Source of the DNA: a virus
Lineage: Duplodnaviria > Heunggongvirae > Uroviricota > Caudoviricetes
Virus record (IMG/VR): IMGVR_UViG_2939147180_000007
Length of the DNA stretch: 42,021 nucleotides
Strand: one strand, 5' to 3'
The notes below the pieces were generated by a model that made no database searches, had not been told where the DNA came from, and saw only the letters and a program-made list of their open reading frames with translations. Every line of letters starts with the position of its first letter. Positions within the stretch are counted from its first letter, which is position 1. Shown here in pieces: positions 24,240 through 37,492 of the stretch. A program made the position numbers and the translations under genes.

Positions 24240-24427
24240 CTGTTCTCCAATGACTAGTCTAAAAACTAGTATTAAGACTATCACTTATTTAAGTGATATT
24301 GGTTGTCTGGAGATTCAGGGGGCCAGTCTATCCACCTATATAGTTTTAATTTTCATCAATCCATTTAACTATCGTTTAATTGTTGTCACATAGGATTCTG
24401 CCGTTTTTAACAATGCAGGATAATAAG

Positions 24428-24721
24428 ATGAAAAAAATGTTGTTTTCTGCCGCTCTGGCAATGCTTATTACAGGATGTGCTCAACAGACGTTTACTGTTG
24501 GAAACAAACCGACAGCAGTAACACCAAAGGAAACCATCACCCATCATTTCTTCGTTTCGGGAATTGGACAGGAGAAAACTGTTGATGCAGCCAAAATTTG
24601 TGGCGGCGCAGAAAATGTTGTTAAAACAGAAACCCAGCAAACATTCGTAAATGGATTTCTCGGTTTTATTACTTTAGGCATTTATACTCCACTGGAAGCG
24701 CGTGTGTATTGCTCACAATAA
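24428..24721 (+). CDS. bor: Bor lipoprotein (serum resistance)
   Basis: track ORF 24380..24721; start at MKKMLFSAALAMLITGCAQQTFTV (lipobox LITGC); matches lambda Bor from memory; opposite strand to Rz as in lambda. Confidence 0.92.
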   Translation: MKKMLFSAALAMLITGCAQQTFTVGNKPTAVTPKETITHHFFVSGIGQEKTVDAAKICGGAENVVKTETQQTFVNGFLGFITLGIYTPLEARVYCSQ

Positions 24722-26874: not shown

Positions 26875-27134
26875 GGTTCTTTCCACCATCTGAAAAATAA
26901 TTCTTTAAAATACCAGACATGTAACACAGAAAAAACACAAAACCATACCTTAAATAGAAACCTGATCATCAAGCAGATATGCATGGATAAACTACAAGAC
27001 GAGATATAAACCACCCTGCATTTAAATAAACAATAAACAACATCAGAAAAATAATTCTGCTCTATGGTTTATATTCAAAAATATCATTTATACTTTTCAG
27101 AACATCACCAGCAAGGCATAAACAAGGAAGCTAA

Positions 27135-27470
27135 ATGAAGTGGATTGTGATTGATACAGTTATCCAGCCATCATGCGGAATATCTTTTTCAGTCATATGG
27201 AGTAAAGTAAAATTAATAATCTGGTATCAATCGGATGCTTTCTTACCTCCTGAAAGTATATTTACACTGACTCACACAGGTATCATGCTCAATAACAAAG
27301 TGCTACCTGTAACCATTTACAACGTAGTACCATTCAATAAAACATTCTGGAATTTAATCAAAAACAGCCAGGAATGCCCTACAAATACAGATAACGTATT
27401 GAATGAATGCTTTAATAACCGTTGCATTCTGCAAATATGTCCTTATGGACTAAAACAACAAAGTCCATAA
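27135..27470 (+). CDS. hypothetical protein in AT-rich moron islet (opposite strand to late operon)
   Basis: 111-aa ORF with SD AAGGAAG upstream; GC content far below flanking phage DNA; no recognisable family. Confidence 0.35.
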
Positions 27471-27494
27471 GGAGTTTACTCACATCTGACAAAA

Positions 27495-27691
27495 TCAATA
27501 TAAACAGCCCCTCCGGAGAGGGGCTGGAGAGTGGCGCTATGTGCCATTGCATGGTGCCGGGTGCCTCCCGGTGAATTCAGTACCAGCACCTGAATCCGCG
27601 ATTATCCCATATACCTACTCGCTGATTACCCCTCCGCACAGGGGGATTCACCATGCGAAATTTTTTAACAAACTTCCCGCCGGCCAGACAA
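27495..27691 (-). ncRNA. candidate structured RNA module, copy 1 (promoter-like element, conserved helices, terminator)
   Basis: minus strand: TTGTCT-N17-TTAAAAAAT, then TCGCATGGTGAATCCCCCT...CTGAATTCACCGGGAGGCACCCGGCACCATGC, then palindromic hairpin AGCCCCTC-CGGA-GAGGGGCT and a U-rich tract. Confidence 0.35.
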
Positions 27692-27960
27692 TAATCGCCA
27701 GCCTGAATTATGAGCAACGTGGCATTTTACGGGAAAACTGTTTTCTGCAGTAAAAAGGCCCGCCGGAGCGAGCCTGGAAGGATAGCGGTCATGTGATGCC
27801 GGTTTCCCGGTAACTCAGCATCGGTATCTGAGTCAACGTTTTCTCTACTGGGTCATTTCCGATACGTTCCGCCTTCCGGCAGACTTTCATCACGTCAGAA
27901 AATATAGCACCCTGAGTAACAGGACAGTACTCAGAATTCAGGAAACTGTGACACATCCTG

Positions 27961-28160
27961 CACAGAAAAGCCCCTCCGGAGAGGGGCTGAAGTATAGCCT
28001 AATTTCTGTCTGTCGCATGGTGCCAGGGGCCTCCCGGTAAATTCAGCCTGTCTACTGAATTTGCATGTTCTCTGGATCATACACTTTGCCAGATGCCCCG
28101 CCGCTGAGGGGGATTCACCATGCGATGTAATTTTTAACAAATTCTCCGGCAGCCAGACAA
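27961..28160 (-). ncRNA. candidate structured RNA module, copy 2 (diverged duplicate of copy 1)
   Basis: same conserved blocks and hairpin-terminator as copy 1, different loop sequences, one G-C to G-U stem change. Confidence 0.35.
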
Positions 28161-28329
28161 TCATCAAGCTGTGGAATTGTGAGGTATTTAAAAATTTCAA
28201 CGGGTAACTGATACCCTGCTAATCGCCTGATGCTTTCTTTTTCAGCAACGGGAAAGCAACAACCACACACCCGCCACCAAAACACCATCAGACAGCACCG
28301 ACATTATCCGGCTGCTGAAGTCCACCATC

Positions 28330-28403
28330 ACCACCAGAAACAACAGGAGTGCAACCACAGCTGCTTAGAAGGCAATTGCTCTGTCCGGCTGAGCTAACAA
28401 CGC
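28330..28403 (-). pseudogene. tRNA-like remnant (Arg UCU-like D arm and anticodon arm, degenerate T arm and acceptor)
   Basis: minus strand TAGCTCAGCCGGACAGAGCAATTGCCTTCTAAGCAGC resembles tRNA-Arg D and anticodon arms; no acceptor pairing or canonical T loop. Confidence 0.3.
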
Positions 28404-28503
28404 TGAATACCGATAATGGACCGCCATCGGGGACCCGCCCCCGCACCAACAACCCTGTTATCGTGTCGTCTGCTCTTCCTGATAAGCTAATGGCGGTTTG
28501 TGA

Positions 28504-28579
28504 TGGTGGCCCTTGCTGGATTTGAACCAGCGACCTGGCGATTATGAGTCGCTCGCTCTCACCACTGAGCTAAAGGGCC
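28504..28579 (-). tRNA. tRNA with anticodon CAU (ileX-like, probably tRNA-Ile2; Met not excluded)
   Basis: 76 nt GGCCCTTTAGCTCAGTGGTGAGAGCGAGCGACTCATAATCGCCAGGTCGCTGGTTCAAATCCAGCAAGGGCCACCA; full cloverleaf; near-identical to E. coli ileX from memory. Confidence 0.85.
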
Positions 28580-28616
28580 GGGAGCAGAATAATAACGGTC
28601 CGTAATTAATTCCGCA

Positions 28617-28640
28617 ATAAAAAACCCGCTCGGCGGCGGG
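28617..28640 (-). terminator. tR'-like intrinsic terminator downstream of late promoter
   Basis: hairpin CCCGCCGCCGAGCGGG followed by U6 on the minus strand, about 50 nt downstream of the putative pR'. Confidence 0.6.
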
Positions 28641-28689
28641 TTGTAGAAACTCTTCTAACGTCAGGCATAAAAAGCCCATTATTATGACG

Positions 28690-28717
28690 AATTTACCACA
28701 GATTCCGGAAAAATCAA
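28690..28717 (-). promoter_or_regulatory. putative late promoter pR' (Q antitermination site region)
   Basis: minus strand TTGATT-N16-TAAATT immediately downstream of Q, followed by terminator; arrangement as in lambdoid pR'/tR'. Confidence 0.4.
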
Positions 28718-28722
28718 CCTTG

Positions 28723-29544
28723 TTACCTAGTTACCTTTTTTAACTGCCGCTCAGCCCATGCTTCTTCAATATCAAACCGGGTCACCAGCGCATCATAGAA
28801 TTTCTTAACTGTTTTTTCCCATGACGCGCGTGTTATCTGGTTTGTCACCTCGCATATAGCATTAAATGTCTCCGTTGATGGTAGTCTTTCATAGCCACGA
28901 CCACCACAACGCTGGCAGTCTCTGATAACAGGCATACCACGTTTTACCGACTCTTCACGATGAATGGCGACACCACGCCCACGGCAATCCTTACAGGCGG
29001 TGGAAACCTCACCCTTTCCGCCACACTCCGGACAGGCAACTTTTACCACCTCCCTGACTTTTTTCCATTCTTCCCAGTAAGACGAATACACACCTTTCGT
29101 ACACTTTGCCCATACCGGCGGCTTACCATCCGGATACTGGACCTTGTTTGTAAAAACTACGCTTTCAATAAATTTTTCCCCATAGCAACAAGGGCACTGC
29201 TTTTTACTCGCTGCGCTGCGGGCATAATCCTCAAAAGCGTACGAAGCCATAATGCGCATCACTAACGGTTTTATTTCTGCCGGAAGTTTTCTCAACGCCG
29301 CAACACGATCGCACCGACTGAGTGCATAATCTGCCAGTAATTCTGTTGCCCGCGCCCTGTCATTCATACTGATGCCCATTTTCCCCAGGAACGCAGAAAA
29401 CCCCATCTCAGCCCGATTCTGTGTCATGCCCTGCGCGGCCATCACATCAGTGATACTCAGCGCATCTTTTGACGTTGAGGCCGATGCATCGGTCAGGCCA
29501 GGGGATTTTGGGGAGTAGTATTTCGGTAAATCTTCCAGTTTCAT
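28723..29544 (-). CDS. Q: late gene antiterminator Q (phage 21/82-type)
   Basis: 273-aa ORF with Cys-rich zinc-binding region (CPCC...CPECGGKGEVSTACKDCRGRG...CQRCGGRG); upstream of pR'/tR' and lysis genes; 4-nt overlap with rusA. Confidence 0.8.
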   Translation of the reverse strand: MKLEDLPKYYSPKSPGLTDASASTSKDALSITDVMAAQGMTQNRAEMGFSAFLGKMGISMNDRARATELLADYALSRCDRVAALRKLPAEIKPLVMRIMASYAFEDYARSAASKKQCPCCYGEKFIESVVFTNKVQYPDGKPPVWAKCTKGVYSSYWEEWKKVREVVKVACPECGGKGEVSTACKDCRGRGVAIHREESVKRGMPVIRDCQRCGGRGYERLPSTETFNAICEVTNQITRASWEKTVKKFYDALVTRFDIEEAWAERQLKKVTR

Positions 29545-31427: not shown

Positions 31428-31583
31428 TTACTCCTCAGGTTCGTAAGCTGTGAAGACAGCGACCTCCGTCTGGCCGGTTCGGATTCGTACCTCGCAGAGG
31501 TCTTTCCTCGTTACCAGTGCCGTCACAATGACGGTTAAACAGATGACGATCAGGGCGATTAACATCGCCTTTTGCTGCTTCAT
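31428..31583 (-). CDS. hok: Hok/Gef family type I toxin
   Basis: 51 aa MKQQKAMLIALIVICLTVIVTALVTRKDLCEVRIRTGQTEVAVFTAYEPEE, near-identical to HokD/RelF from memory; in-frame upstream extension to 31640 occupies the mok position. Confidence 0.88.
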   Translation of the reverse strand: MKQQKAMLIALIVICLTVIVTALVTRKDLCEVRIRTGQTEVAVFTAYEPEE

Positions 31584-31842
31584 AGCCTGCTTCTCCTTGC
31601 CTTTCGGCACGTAAGAGGCTAACCTAGATTTGCCGTTCATAGATTGAGCCTCAGATTAATGTTAAGCGTCTTGCAGGACGCGTAATGTTAACTGGGGCTT
31701 TTCTCTATCTGCCTTTTGGTGTTCATGCCTGAGACAGATAGCCTCAAGCACCCGCAGTCATTCTACTTAACTAAGATTTCCCCGCAAACCGTTTTTGTCC
31801 GGCACAGTAAATATCCAACTAAACCAATGGCGTTCGCTGTAT

Positions 31843-37434: not shown

Positions 37435-37492
37435 TTTCTGGTGACATTTGGCGGTATCAGTTTTACTCCGTGACTGCTCTGCCGCCCTTTTT
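37435..37492 (+). ncRNA. dicF: DicF small RNA (ftsZ-targeting antisense sRNA)
   Basis: TTTCTGGTGACATTTGGCGGTATCAGTTTTACTCCGTGACTGCTCTGCCGCCCTTTTT matches DicF from memory; about 170 nt upstream of dicB. Confidence 0.7.

What the first reader, a model, noticed from the sequence alone, without database searches (positions are those of the whole stretch)
27495..28170. Two tandem, diverged copies of a promoter / structured-RNA / terminator module on the late strand
Two ~200-bp units (about 27495-27691 and 27961-28160, minus strand) share a -35-like TTGTCT, 17-bp spacer and -10-like TTAAAA(A)T, then conserved blocks TCGCATGGTGAATCCCCCT ... CTGAATT.ACCGGGAGGC.CC.GGCACCATGC, ending in a perfect palindromic hairpin AGCCCCTC-CGGA-GAGGGGCT that is followed by a U-tract only on the minus strand. 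Predicted helices are conserved while their loops differ: the AATTCAG/CTGAATT stem carries unrelated loops, the CCCC/GGGG stem carries different loops, and a long-range GCATGGTG/CACCATGC helix closes both. One stem difference is a G-C to G-U change, tolerated only in minus-strand RNA. This looks like a duplicated structured RNA gene with its own promoter and terminator, sitting in the Q-to-S moron hotspot. I cannot assign it to a known RNA family from memory.
Basis: seen in the sequence. Interest (0 to 1): 0.7.

Follow-up and report, generated by a model that had tools for sequence, protein, structure and literature searches.

The report
Three tandem STnc100-family prophage sRNA genes
The two repeated units are real, but they belong to a known family of prophage small-RNA genes (Rfam STnc100; EcOnc05/06/27 in EHEC; related to PasD). 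A third, diverged copy sits between them, so the finding is mostly ordinary, apart from a conserved pseudoknotted 5' fold that I did not find described.

Summary
Both units are full-length matches to Rfam RF02076 (STnc100) on the minus strand: 28153-27960 at 138 bits and 27684-27496 at 132.5 bits, against a gathering score of 47. Unit C is 150/152 identical to the EHEC Sakai Sp4 locus detected as EcOnc05 by Hfq crosslinking and Northern blot. The Stx2-phage copy is EcOnc27/sRNA103, and PasD1/PasD2 of EPEC are diverged relatives whose mapped 5' end is the same G of GCAUGGUG.

Three things go beyond the finding.
1. A third, diverged unit (27893-27752, 30 bits) lies between the two. The three-unit cassette recurs in at least 96 viral contigs and about 400 E. 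coli genomes.
2. The 5' domain contains a covarying pseudoknot (the segment after hairpin P2 pairs with the P4 loop). It is not in the Rfam consensus I saw, and the one recent paper I searched does not use the word.
3. The conserved 5' domain is combined with interchangeable 3' linker/terminator tails.

The most likely function is an Hfq-associated trans-acting sRNA with its seed in the linker. The role of the 5' domain is unknown. Novelty: already known. Interest is low to moderate.

The parts
28124..28160 (-). Unit A promoter region: -35-like TTGTCT (28160-28155), 17-nt spacer, TTAAAA (28137-28132). It can also be read as TG (28139-28138) plus TAAAAA (28136-28131).
   Evidence: Sequence. 8/12 consensus matches at a fixed distance from the RNA start, as in 84% of family members.
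28015..28123 (-). Unit A 5' structured domain (P1 closing helix, P2, P4, P5). P2 has lost its U-A pair, P5 carries a G-U, and the pseudoknot is almost gone.
   Evidence: Rfam STnc100 at 138 bits. Fold. Pseudoknot dG -1.8 kcal/mol, worse than 25 non-cognate combinations.
27964..28014 (-). Unit A linker (28014-27989) and terminator hairpin (27988-27969) with a UUUU tail. The tail is homologous to that of EcOnc27 from the Stx2 phage.
   Evidence: Terminator scan. 43/50 aligned bases identical to the Sp5 EcOnc27 tail.
27894..27909 (-). Unit B extended -10 promoter element: TG-c-TATATT (TG 27909-27908, TATATT 27906-27901), 7 nt before the RNA start.
   Evidence: Sequence. Conserved in both B-type alleles.
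27793..27893 (-). Unit B 5' domain, a diverged family member: P1 GUGAUG/CAUCAC, P2 CUGCC/GGCGG, P4 ACUCAG/CUGAGU, P5 CCGG/CCGG, pseudoknot (G)UAUCGG/CCGAU(G).
   Evidence: Rfam STnc100 at 30 bits, E 2.8e-4, below gathering. Fold z -2.67. Pseudoknot -6.9 kcal/mol with no better non-cognate partner. The allele differences I located in P2 and the pseudoknot keep pairing through wobble.
27752..27792 (-). Unit B linker (CU-rich: UAUCCUUCC) and terminator AGGCUCGC-UCCG-GCGGGCCU (27775-27756) with a U5 tail.
   Evidence: Terminator scan.
27657..27691 (-). Unit C promoter region: TTGTCT (27691-27686), 17-nt spacer, TTAAAA (27668-27663). It can also be read as TG (27670-27669) plus TAAAAA (27667-27662).
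   Evidence: Sequence. Promoter comparison.
27549..27656 (-). Unit C 5' domain, the canonical form with all helices and a 7-bp pseudoknot (AUCAGCG / UGCUGGU).
   Evidence: Rfam at 132.5 bits. Fold z -3.16. Pseudoknot -8.6 kcal/mol. The EcOnc05 Northern probe matches 27593-27627 exactly.
27496..27548 (-). Unit C linker (27548-27527) and terminator (27526-27505) with a weak, interrupted U-tract. This is the commonest tail class in the viral set.
   Evidence: 43 of 128 instances. 150/152 identical to the Sakai Sp4 EcOnc05 locus from the RNA start to the end of the terminator stem.
28616..28717 (-). Context, not part of the units: candidate late promoter PR' (TTGATT 28717-28712, 16-nt spacer, TAAATT 28695-28690) and a short leader ending in a tR'-like terminator (28642-28623 plus U6).
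   Evidence: Sequence. Terminator scan. Q stop codon at 28725-28723.
28504..28579 (-). Context: tRNA-Ile (anticodon CAU) upstream of the array, as in Stx phages and EHEC prophages.
   Evidence: ARAGORN. Rfam tRNA at 72.5 bits. PGAP annotation.

Best explanation
The region holds three tandem, independently transcribed small-RNA genes of the STnc100 / EcOnc05-06-27 / PasD family. They are carried as a 'moron' cassette between the Q antiterminator and the lysis genes of a Qin-like lambdoid prophage.

Each gene has four parts:
1. A weak-consensus or extended -10 sigma-70 promoter.
2. A 100-110-nt 5' domain. It is closed by helix P1 and contains an invariant hairpin P2, a variable arm, hairpin P4 whose loop forms a pseudoknot with the segment after P2, and an invariant hairpin P5.
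3. A 17-26-nt single-stranded, partly CU-rich linker.
4. A Rho-independent terminator.

Shown here: family identity, architecture, covariation of P1, P4 and the pseudoknot, and recurrence of the cassette.

Taken from the literature on near-identical or related copies: expression in lysogens, Hfq crosslinking, and reduced abundance or stability without Hfq for EcOnc27/sRNA103. For the PasD sRNAs: Northern sizes that match the predictions, Hfq dependence reported for the group, and RIL-seq target contacts in the 3' ~50 nt.

Inferred: the three RNAs act in trans as Hfq-associated base-pairing regulators, and their different linkers serve as seeds, so the cassette delivers three specificities. The conserved 5' domain has a further, unknown role (stability, or binding of a protein or ligand). 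During lytic growth, Q-modified polymerase reads through the three terminators.
For: - Rfam RF02076 full-length matches at 138 and 132.5 bits, plus a third at 30 bits.
- Unit C is 150/152 identical to the Sakai Sp4 EcOnc05 locus. The EcOnc05 Northern probe matches the window exactly.
- Tree et al. 2014 (PMC4104026) report Hfq-CRAC sRNAs at the moron site of at least 8 Sakai prophages. EcOnc27 = sRNA103 was probed by Northern and its 247-nt form is destabilised without Hfq.
- In EDL933, 11 STnc100 copies are transcribed and one is Northern-confirmed (PMC5331693).
- PasD1/2: the 5' end maps to the G of GCAUGGUG, the length is 172-173 nt, and RIL-seq chimeras and the seed UGUGAG map to the linker next to the terminator. 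Hfq-dependent stability is reported for the Pas sRNAs as a group (PMC8550237).
- Promoter-like hexamers at fixed distance in 84% of family members against 4.4% at random positions.
- Pair counts: 95.8% of cells paired against about 48% when slid, with double-sided changes in P1 and P4.
- Pseudoknot: cognate -8.56 against non-cognate -3.77 kcal/mol, p 1.6e-12.
- Tail modularity: 24 domain clusters and 19 tail classes, freely combined.
- Cassette recurrence.
Against: - No expression data exist for this particular prophage, or for unit A or unit B types.
- Unit A has lost the pseudoknot and one P2 pair and may be decaying.
- The U-tails of units A and C are short or interrupted, which is poor for both termination and Hfq binding.
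- Northern sizes reported for EcOnc05 (~222 nt) and EcOnc27 (~235/247 nt) exceed the 155-171 nt predicted from the proposed start to the terminator. Some transcripts may therefore start upstream or read through.
- In the papers I read, no direct target of any STnc100-type RNA has been validated. The effects of sRNA103 on espA are described as indirect, and the mechanism of its effect on fimZ is described as unclear.
- PasD abundance did not drop significantly in the hfq mutant in the DESeq2 table.
- An invariant, pseudoknotted 100-nt domain is not something base-pairing sRNAs normally need. The seed model therefore leaves most of the molecule unexplained.
Confidence: 0.7

Rival explanations
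1. The functional core is the conserved pseudoknotted 5' domain. It would act as a protein-binding scaffold or decoy (like 6S RNA, CsrB or Y-RNA-type RNAs) for a host or phage factor, and the 3' tail would serve mainly as terminator and stabiliser.
For: P2 (CCCCU-RNGCGG-AGGGG) and P5 (CCGGG-AGGCA-CCCGG) are essentially invariant in sequence across about 40 variants, while the other arms have diverged freely and compensate. That pattern suggests sequence-specific recognition rather than bare structure. The pseudoknot is maintained through more than 10 different sequence pairs. Both invariant hairpins carry GGAGG/GGA motifs. Some EDL933 copies give sizeable ribosome-footprint signals.
Against: No partner is known. 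Hfq-CRAC and RIL-seq signals on relatives point to classic sRNA behaviour, with contacts in the 3' part. PasD lacks P5 yet is abundant and interacts with many targets. This reading can also coexist with the main explanation rather than replace it.
Confidence: 0.13
2. Each unit is a cis-acting riboswitch-like attenuator. The 5' domain would be an aptamer, and its folding would decide whether the downstream terminator forms, gating transcription from the unit's own promoter into downstream genes. The tandem copies would sharpen the response.
For: The layout resembles a transcriptional riboswitch: promoter, then a P1-closed multi-helix pseudoknotted domain with invariant nucleotides, then a variable 'expression platform' ending in a terminator. 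In the common tail, the terminator arms (GCCCCUC/GAGGGGC) can pair with the arms of P2. In PasD1, the 3' strand of P1 (GCGCCAUGC) is complementary to GCAUGGCGC inside the terminator. Both are by-eye observations.
Against: The alternative pairings are not general, because many unrelated terminators are attached to the same domain. There is no consistent downstream gene: another unit, a convergent AsxR, a convergent iraM, or esterase or lysis genes. Read-through into holin in a lysogen would be harmful. The terminated RNAs accumulate and bind Hfq. No Rfam riboswitch family matches.
Confidence: 0.07
3. The units are non-functional remnants: duplicated debris and recombination scars of the moron region. 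Their similarity would reflect recent duplication, not selection.
For: Unit A departs from family invariants (P2 mismatch, P5 loop change, pseudoknot lost). The neighbouring tRNA-Arg genes have decayed in this prophage. The region is mosaic.
Against: Units C and B keep every helix. Differences between variants compensate each other or preserve pairing through wobble. The cassette is conserved in at least 96 viral contigs and hundreds of genomes. A copy virtually identical to unit C is expressed in EHEC.
Confidence: 0.05
4. The units are the Q-dependent late leader (PR'-qut-tR', like lambda 6S RNA or StxS), or decayed tRNA genes.
For: They sit downstream of Q, are about 160 nt long from promoter to terminator like lambda 6S RNA, and lie next to a tRNA cluster.
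Against: A separate PR'-like promoter and a tR'-like terminator lie directly after the Q stop codon (28717-28616), upstream of the tRNA. The units occur in 1 to 4 copies and also downstream of stx2B. ARAGORN and the Rfam tRNA model do not match them even at E up to 5.
Confidence: 0.02

Closest known systems
Rfam RF02076 STnc100 (Gammaproteobacterial sRNA, first listed in Salmonella)
   Same: Units A and C match the whole 206-position model far above the gathering score, with the same helices, promoter-proximal A-rich block and terminator.
   Different: The Rfam model begins about 28 nt upstream of the likely RNA start, so it includes promoter DNA. Its consensus line shows no pseudoknot. Unit B falls below the gathering score.
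EcOnc05 / EcOnc06 (EHEC Sakai prophages Sp4 / Sp17; Tree et al. 2014)
   Same: Unit C is 150/152 identical to the Sp4 locus from the RNA start to the terminator. The Northern probes match with 0 and 1 mismatches. Both follow the phage tRNA cluster.
   Different: In Sp4 the gene is single and, per Tree et al.'s coordinates, followed by a convergent sRNA on the other strand. Here it is the last of three sense units and faces iraM. The reported Northern size (~222 nt) is larger than predicted.
EcOnc27 = sRNA103 (Stx2 phage Sp5/933W, 75 nt downstream of stx2B)
   Same: Same family (207.7 bits). Its linker/terminator tail is homologous to that of unit A. It is Hfq-bound and its 247-nt form is destabilised without Hfq.
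   Different: Different central arm and pseudoknot sequence. It is paired with the convergent anti-sRNA AsxR, which is absent from this window.
PasD1 / PasD2 (EPEC E2348/69; EcOnc13 homologue)
   Same: Same promoter layout, same first nucleotide, and the same P1, P2, P4 and pseudoknot. Seed in the linker before the terminator.
   Different: PasD lacks hairpin P5, has a longer U-rich linker and a different terminator, and reaches only 38-41 bits on the Rfam model. Zhu et al. 2026 report PasD copies as distal, not tandem.
Tandem duplicated sRNAs such as OmrA/OmrB, PrrF1/PrrF2 and Qrr1-5 (my own knowledge; the first two are also cited in Zhu et al. 2026)
   Same: Adjacent paralogous sRNA genes, each with its own promoter and terminator, sharing one part and differing in another.
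   Different: In those, the conserved part is the seed or the Hfq module. Here the conserved part is a large 5' structured domain, and the putative seed is the variable part.

Membership tests
Rfam RF02076 STnc100 | Score at or above the curated gathering threshold (47 bits) over the full model | tested here: met
   Unit A 138 bits and unit C 132.5 bits, model positions 1-206. Unit B reaches only 30 bits, so it is a diverged relative and not a formal member.
Rfam RF02076 STnc100 | P1-closed multi-hairpin 5' domain followed by a Rho-independent terminator | tested here: met
   Folds. Pair counts: 95.8% paired, with covariation in P1 and P4. Terminators.
Prophage moron-site Hfq sRNAs (EcOnc05/06/27, Tree et al. 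2014) | Located 3' of the Q gene and PR', and 5' of the lysis genes, in a lambdoid prophage, on the late strand | tested here: met
   Q at 29544-28723, holin at 26483-26163, lysozyme at 25744-25211, all on the minus strand.
Prophage moron-site Hfq sRNAs (EcOnc05/06/27, Tree et al. 2014) | Convergent partner sRNA of the AsxR/AgvB type on the opposite strand ('dyad') | tested here: not met
   No AsxR or AgvB match in the window at gathering score, or at E up to 5 in 27200-28750. The same scan finds AsxR in Sp5.
Prophage moron-site Hfq sRNAs (EcOnc05/06/27, Tree et al. 2014) | Expressed as a discrete RNA and bound or stabilised by Hfq | not testable with these tools
   Known only for near-identical or related copies in other strains.
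PasD sRNAs (Pearl Mizrahi et al. 2021) | Sequence identity to PasD1/2, including the seed UGUGAG and the GGCUGCGC terminator | tested here: not met
   The alignment shows shared 5' domain elements only. The tails are unrelated and P5 is present here but absent in PasD.
Lambdoid late leader (PR'-qut-tR'; lambda 6S RNA, StxS) | Begins at the promoter immediately downstream of the Q gene, single copy | tested here: not met
   A separate candidate PR' and tR' lie at 28717-28616. The units begin 590 nt or more downstream of Q, beyond a tRNA and a DUF3927 ORF.
tRNA / tRNA remnant | Match to tRNA covariance model or ARAGORN cloverleaf | tested here: not met
   Only 28504-28579 is called. No tRNA hit on the units at E up to 5.
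Riboswitch (any Rfam class) | Match to a known aptamer model, and a consistent regulated downstream gene | tested here: not met
   No riboswitch family at E up to 5. The downstream neighbours are heterogeneous.

The most novel reading that the evidence does not exclude
The STnc100/PasD 5' domain is a distinct class of compact pseudoknotted RNA fold (P1-P2-PK-P4-P5 with invariant P2 and P5) that specifically binds a ligand or a protein. The family would then be a modular 'sensor or scaffold plus exchangeable seed/terminator' system spread by temperate phages, and tandem arrays such as this one would put several seeds under one shared input. That would make these RNAs more than ordinary Hfq sRNAs.
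Probability: 0.15. Interest if true: 0.75.

Novelty: already known. Interest (0 to 1): 0.3.

Why it matters
As found, this is a correct from-sequence rediscovery of a known prophage sRNA family, so it adds little on its own.

It matters modestly for three reasons.
1. The family is among the most abundant annotated sRNA families, sits next to stx2 and the lysis genes, and is linked in the literature to EHEC/EPEC virulence regulation and clinical outcome. Its function is still unknown.
2. The covarying pseudoknot and the invariant hairpins show that most of the molecule is a complex fold. Current seed-centred descriptions do not explain it.
3. Three-unit and four-unit tandem cassettes, including a diverged B-type that Rfam's threshold misses, mean that copy numbers and repertoires of this family are under-counted in genome annotation.

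Tried and rejected
1. The genome-contig scan with the 14-mer GCATGGTGAATCCC returned only chance matches in unrelated taxa, because a 14-mer is too short for 596 Gb.
2. MAFFT alignments (A1-A3) cannot keep the variable arm, the bulged P4 and the pseudoknot in register. The pair-count tool was therefore applied only to P1, P2, outer P4 and P5. P4 and the pseudoknot were tested per sequence, with a cognate versus non-cognate control.
3. The simple promoter scan does not call the unit promoters. I replaced it with a fixed-distance comparison across family members.
4. Late leader/qut and decayed tRNA were considered and rejected.
5. Protein coding was considered and rejected. Domain lengths vary from 107 to 138 nt in steps that are not multiples of three. 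The ORFs across the units differ between units. Most EDL933 copies show low ribosome occupancy.
6. I looked for a convergent AsxR/AgvB partner and found none.
7. Mapping the Hfq-CRAC peaks of EcOnc05/EcOnc27 onto the RNAs is only tentative. The 2014 coordinates refer to an older Sakai record. The probe positions suggest offsets of 0 (Sp4) and about 142 nt (Sp5), which would place the peaks over the 3' half including the linker.
8. The August 2026 CsrA-guide preprint that mentions PasD could not be opened.
9. I built no covariance model of my own, since Rfam's model plus pattern scans were sufficient.
Full report
**1. What is in the sequence**

- TTGTCT, a 17-nt spacer and TTAAAA. Both copies also read as TG-n-TAAAAA, an extended -10.
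- GCAUGGUG, which begins 5-8 nt further on.
- A set of hairpins, then CACCAUGC closing the domain.
- A short linker.
- The hairpin AGCCCCUC-UCCG-GAGGGGCU.

The two units are 84% identical over aligned columns: promoter 84%, domain 78%, linker 58%, terminator 81%. The terminator scan finds 11 terminator-like sites in 27100-28800 against 1.9 expected. Three of them end the units described here, and one lies just after Q. The U-tracts are short (unit A: UUUU) or interrupted (unit C: UGUUUAUAUU). The simple promoter scan does not reach its threshold, since the hexamers score 8/12.

**2. Identity**

A scan of the whole window against Rfam gives two full-length matches to RF02076, STnc100.
- 28153-27960 (minus strand): 138 bits, E 1.7e-30.
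- 27684-27496 (minus strand): 132.5 bits, E 4.5e-29.
- The gathering score is 47.

At a permissive threshold a third match appears between them, 27924-27749 at 30 bits, E 2.8e-4. This 'unit B' has:
- its own TG-c-TATATT element 7 nt before the RNA start;
- its own closing helix (GUGAUG/CAUCAC);
- counterparts of every hairpin, with different sequences;
- its own terminator (27775-27756) with a U5 tail.

The locus is therefore a three-gene array.

**3. Context**

The order on the minus strand is:
- hokD/sok, a DUF968 gene and RusA;
- antiterminator Q (29544-28723);
- a candidate PR' promoter and a short leader ending in a tR'-like terminator (28717-28616);
- tRNA-Ile(CAU) and remnants of tRNA-Arg;
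- a small DUF3927 ORF;
- units A, B and C;
- a convergent iraM-like gene on the plus strand;
- DUF1737, a P21-type holin, DUF1327, lysozyme and Rz;
- bor/iss.

DicF lies further on. This is a Qin-like lambdoid prophage, and the array sits at the classical moron site. The late leader is a separate element, and no tRNA model matches the units.

**4. What is already known about the family**

- Tree et al. 2014 (PMC4104026) crosslinked Hfq to RNAs in EHEC Sakai. They described sRNA genes at conserved positions 3' of PR' in at least eight lambdoid prophages, typically as convergent pairs.
- Their supplementary Northern probe for EcOnc05 is the exact reverse complement of window 27593-27627. The EcOnc06 probe matches 27580-27614 with one mismatch.
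- From the RNA start to the end of the terminator stem, unit C is 150/152 identical to the Sp4 locus of Sakai.
- In the Stx2 phage Sp5, the STnc100 match (207.7 bits) starts 75 nt after stx2B and is followed by the convergent anti-sRNA AsxR. This RNA is EcOnc27 = sRNA103. It was probed by Northern, its 247-nt form is destabilised without Hfq, and its overexpression raises fimZ and espA transcripts. The espA effect is described as indirect and the fimZ mechanism as unclear.
- EDL933 has 11 STnc100 copies, all transcribed. One was confirmed by Northern, and most have low ribosome occupancy.
- PasD1 and PasD2 of EPEC are abundant 172-173-nt RNAs found by RIL-seq. The authors report Hfq-dependent stability for the Pas sRNAs. 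In their DESeq2 table, however, PasD abundance did not change significantly in the hfq comparison.
- The estimated PasD 5' end is the G of GCAUGGUG, downstream of TTGACT-17-TTAAAA. The RIL-seq contacts and proposed seed lie in the linker next to the terminator.
- Zhu, Shabalina and Storz (bioRxiv 2026) concluded that PasD and STnc100 share an ancestor.
- At least one public phage record already annotates the element as STnc100. PGAP does not annotate it in the genomes identical to the window.

**5. Comparative tests done here**

A pattern scan of IMG/VR gave 131 instances in 120 contigs, with 90 distinct core sequences. I reduced them to 42 representatives below 93% identity.

(a) *Promoter.* In 84% of 43 distinct upstream sequences, a -35/-10 pair with at least 8/12 matches lies at the fixed distance from the first G. 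At random positions of the same contigs the figure is 4.4%. The upstream sequences fall into several unrelated classes: TTGTCT/TAAAAA, TTGACA/TAAATT, TTGAAA/TG-n-TAAATT and TTGATT/TAAAAA. This is good comparative evidence for an own promoter and for the RNA start.

(b) *Nested helices.* On alignment A3, 95.8% of cells pair, against 43-52% when the partner is slid.
- Three pairs of P1 and three of the four outer pairs of P4 show double-sided changes. For example, A-U changes to G-C in 14 sequences.
- P2 and P5 almost never vary. Covariation is therefore silent on them, but their sequence invariance amid otherwise free divergence is itself notable.
- P4 occurs in more than 20 different stem versions.

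(c) *Pseudoknot.* The segment 2-4 nt after P2 is complementary to the loop of P4 in almost every variant, with many different sequences:
- AUCAGC/GCUGAU
- CCAGUC/GACUGG
- AAUGAC/GUCAUU
- CUGGUG/CACCGG
- GCCAGUC/GACUGGC
- ACUGGAUA/UAUCCAGU
- ACUGGCU/AGCCAG

Over 31 distinct combinations:
- cognate duplex energy averages -8.56 kcal/mol;
- non-cognate pairs average -3.77;
- shuffled loops average -3.42;
- Mann-Whitney p = 1.6e-12.

The sequences are related, so this p-value overstates independence. The number of distinct compensated versions is the real argument.

The pseudoknot is present in unit C (-8.6), unit B (-6.9) and PasD1 (-8.7). It is nearly lost in unit A (-1.8). It does not appear in the Rfam consensus line, and the word does not occur in Zhu et al..

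(d) *Modularity.* The 24 domain clusters and 19 tail classes are combined freely. Eight domain clusters carry more than one tail class (up to 5), and eight tail classes occur on more than one domain cluster.

(e) *Arrays.*
- Eleven of the first 120 contigs have two canonical cores 267-663 nt apart, and one has them 2108 nt apart.
- One contig has four consecutive Rfam hits (L128).
- Four contigs repeat the window's layout after three intact tRNAs.
- The B-type was found 117 times, as two main alleles. The differences I located in P2 and the pseudoknot (U.G to U-A, C-G to U.G, U-A to U.G) all keep pairing on this strand.
- 96 of the 117 are flanked on both sides by canonical cores.
- In complete E. 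coli genomes the B-type occurs in 673 of 5426. The tRNA-to-unit-C stretch is at least 80% covered in 403 genomes.

**6. How it most likely works**

*Shown here:* three adjacent genes of a known sRNA family, each with a promoter-like element, a folded 5' domain, a free linker and a terminator.

*Taken from relatives:* expression in lysogens, Hfq association, and target contacts in the 3' part.

*Inferred:* units A, B and C give three RNAs of about 160, 142 and 159 nt. Their differing linkers are:
- A: ...ACAGAAAUUAGGCUAUACUUC
- B: ...AUGACCGCUAUCCUUCC
- C: ...AAUGGCACAUAGCGCCACUCUCC

These linkers would act as seeds with Hfq. In lytic growth, Q-modified polymerase would read through the array.

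*Unexplained:* the invariant, pseudoknotted 5' domain, which makes up two thirds of each RNA. A role as a protein or ligand binding module, or as a riboswitch-like attenuator, cannot be excluded. I give these readings 0.13 and 0.07. The attenuator idea is weakened by the heterogeneous terminators and downstream genes.

*Caveats:*
- Northern sizes for EcOnc05 (~222 nt) and EcOnc27 (~235/247 nt) are larger than predicted. EcOnc06 (~177 nt) and PasD (172-173 nt) fit.
- Unit A shows signs of decay.
- The U-tails of A and C are weak.

**7. Verdict**

The element is an already known family, so novelty is 'already known'. The residual interest lies in the third, sub-threshold unit, the conserved three-unit cassette, and the pseudoknotted invariant 5' fold of unknown function. 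Interest 0.3.

Noticed in passing
window 28616-28717 (minus strand): Directly after the Q stop codon (28725-28723) there is a PR'-like promoter (TTGATT, 16-nt spacer, TAAATT) and a ~65-nt leader ending in a strong terminator (AACCCGCCGCCGAGCGGGUUUUUU). It looks like a short late-leader RNA of the StxS type, which could itself be an sRNA. It gives only insignificant Rfam hits (Trp_leader 25.7 bits, isrK 14 bits).
   Followed up: partly
window 28340-28470 (minus strand): Downstream of the intact tRNA-Ile(CAU) there are remnants of the phage tRNA-Arg genes (for example GUUAGCUCAGCCGGACAGAGCAAUUGCCUUCUAAGCAG). ARAGORN does not call them. They run into the start of the annotated 38-aa DUF3927 ORF (28358-28242). 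Related viral contigs and Sakai Sp4 keep all three tRNAs.
   Followed up: partly
window 27135-27470 (plus strand): A 111-aa ORF convergent with unit C is annotated by PGAP in identical genomes as the anti-adapter protein IraM, which stabilises RpoS. It has no Pfam hit. It is a possible lysogenic-conversion gene sitting where other prophages carry the convergent anti-sRNA.
   Followed up: no
window 27437-27477: A long, near-perfect inverted repeat (CUCCUUAUGGACU...AGUCCAUAAGGAC) overlaps the 3' end of the iraM-like ORF, just downstream of unit C. It may be a bidirectional terminator or a processing site.
   Followed up: no
window 31578-31753 (minus strand) and 37436-37487 (plus strand): Full-length Rfam matches to sok (112 bits, next to a hokD ORF) and DicF (77 bits). 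These mark the prophage as Qin-like.
   Followed up: no
L124, L137, L153, L158 and others, 25-40 nt upstream of the RNA start; weaker in window 28170-28155 and 27700-27686: Many family members have a direct repeat, GTTGACAGTTGTCTG, overlapping the -35. It contains a perfect TTGACA placed too far from the -10 to serve as the -35. It may be a regulator binding site or a second promoter.
   Followed up: no
L128:2265-3380 (minus strand): A viral contig carries four consecutive STnc100-family units downstream of its tRNAs. Each unit has a different central arm and tail.
   Followed up: partly
B-type copies in viral contigs: Five of the 117 B-type copies have a completely different sequence after GCUAUCCU. 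This is a tail swap inside the linker, the same kind of modular exchange seen for canonical units.
   Followed up: no
window 24380-24721 (plus strand): A Bor/Iss-type lipoprotein gene (increased serum survival) lies just beyond Rz on the opposite strand. It is another moron of this prophage.
   Followed up: no
window 28723-29544 (minus strand): The Q antiterminator (273 aa) combines the Pfam Antiterm domain with a sub-threshold DnaJ-type CXXCXGXG zinc-finger match (29.3 bits against a cut-off of 32.7).
   Followed up: no
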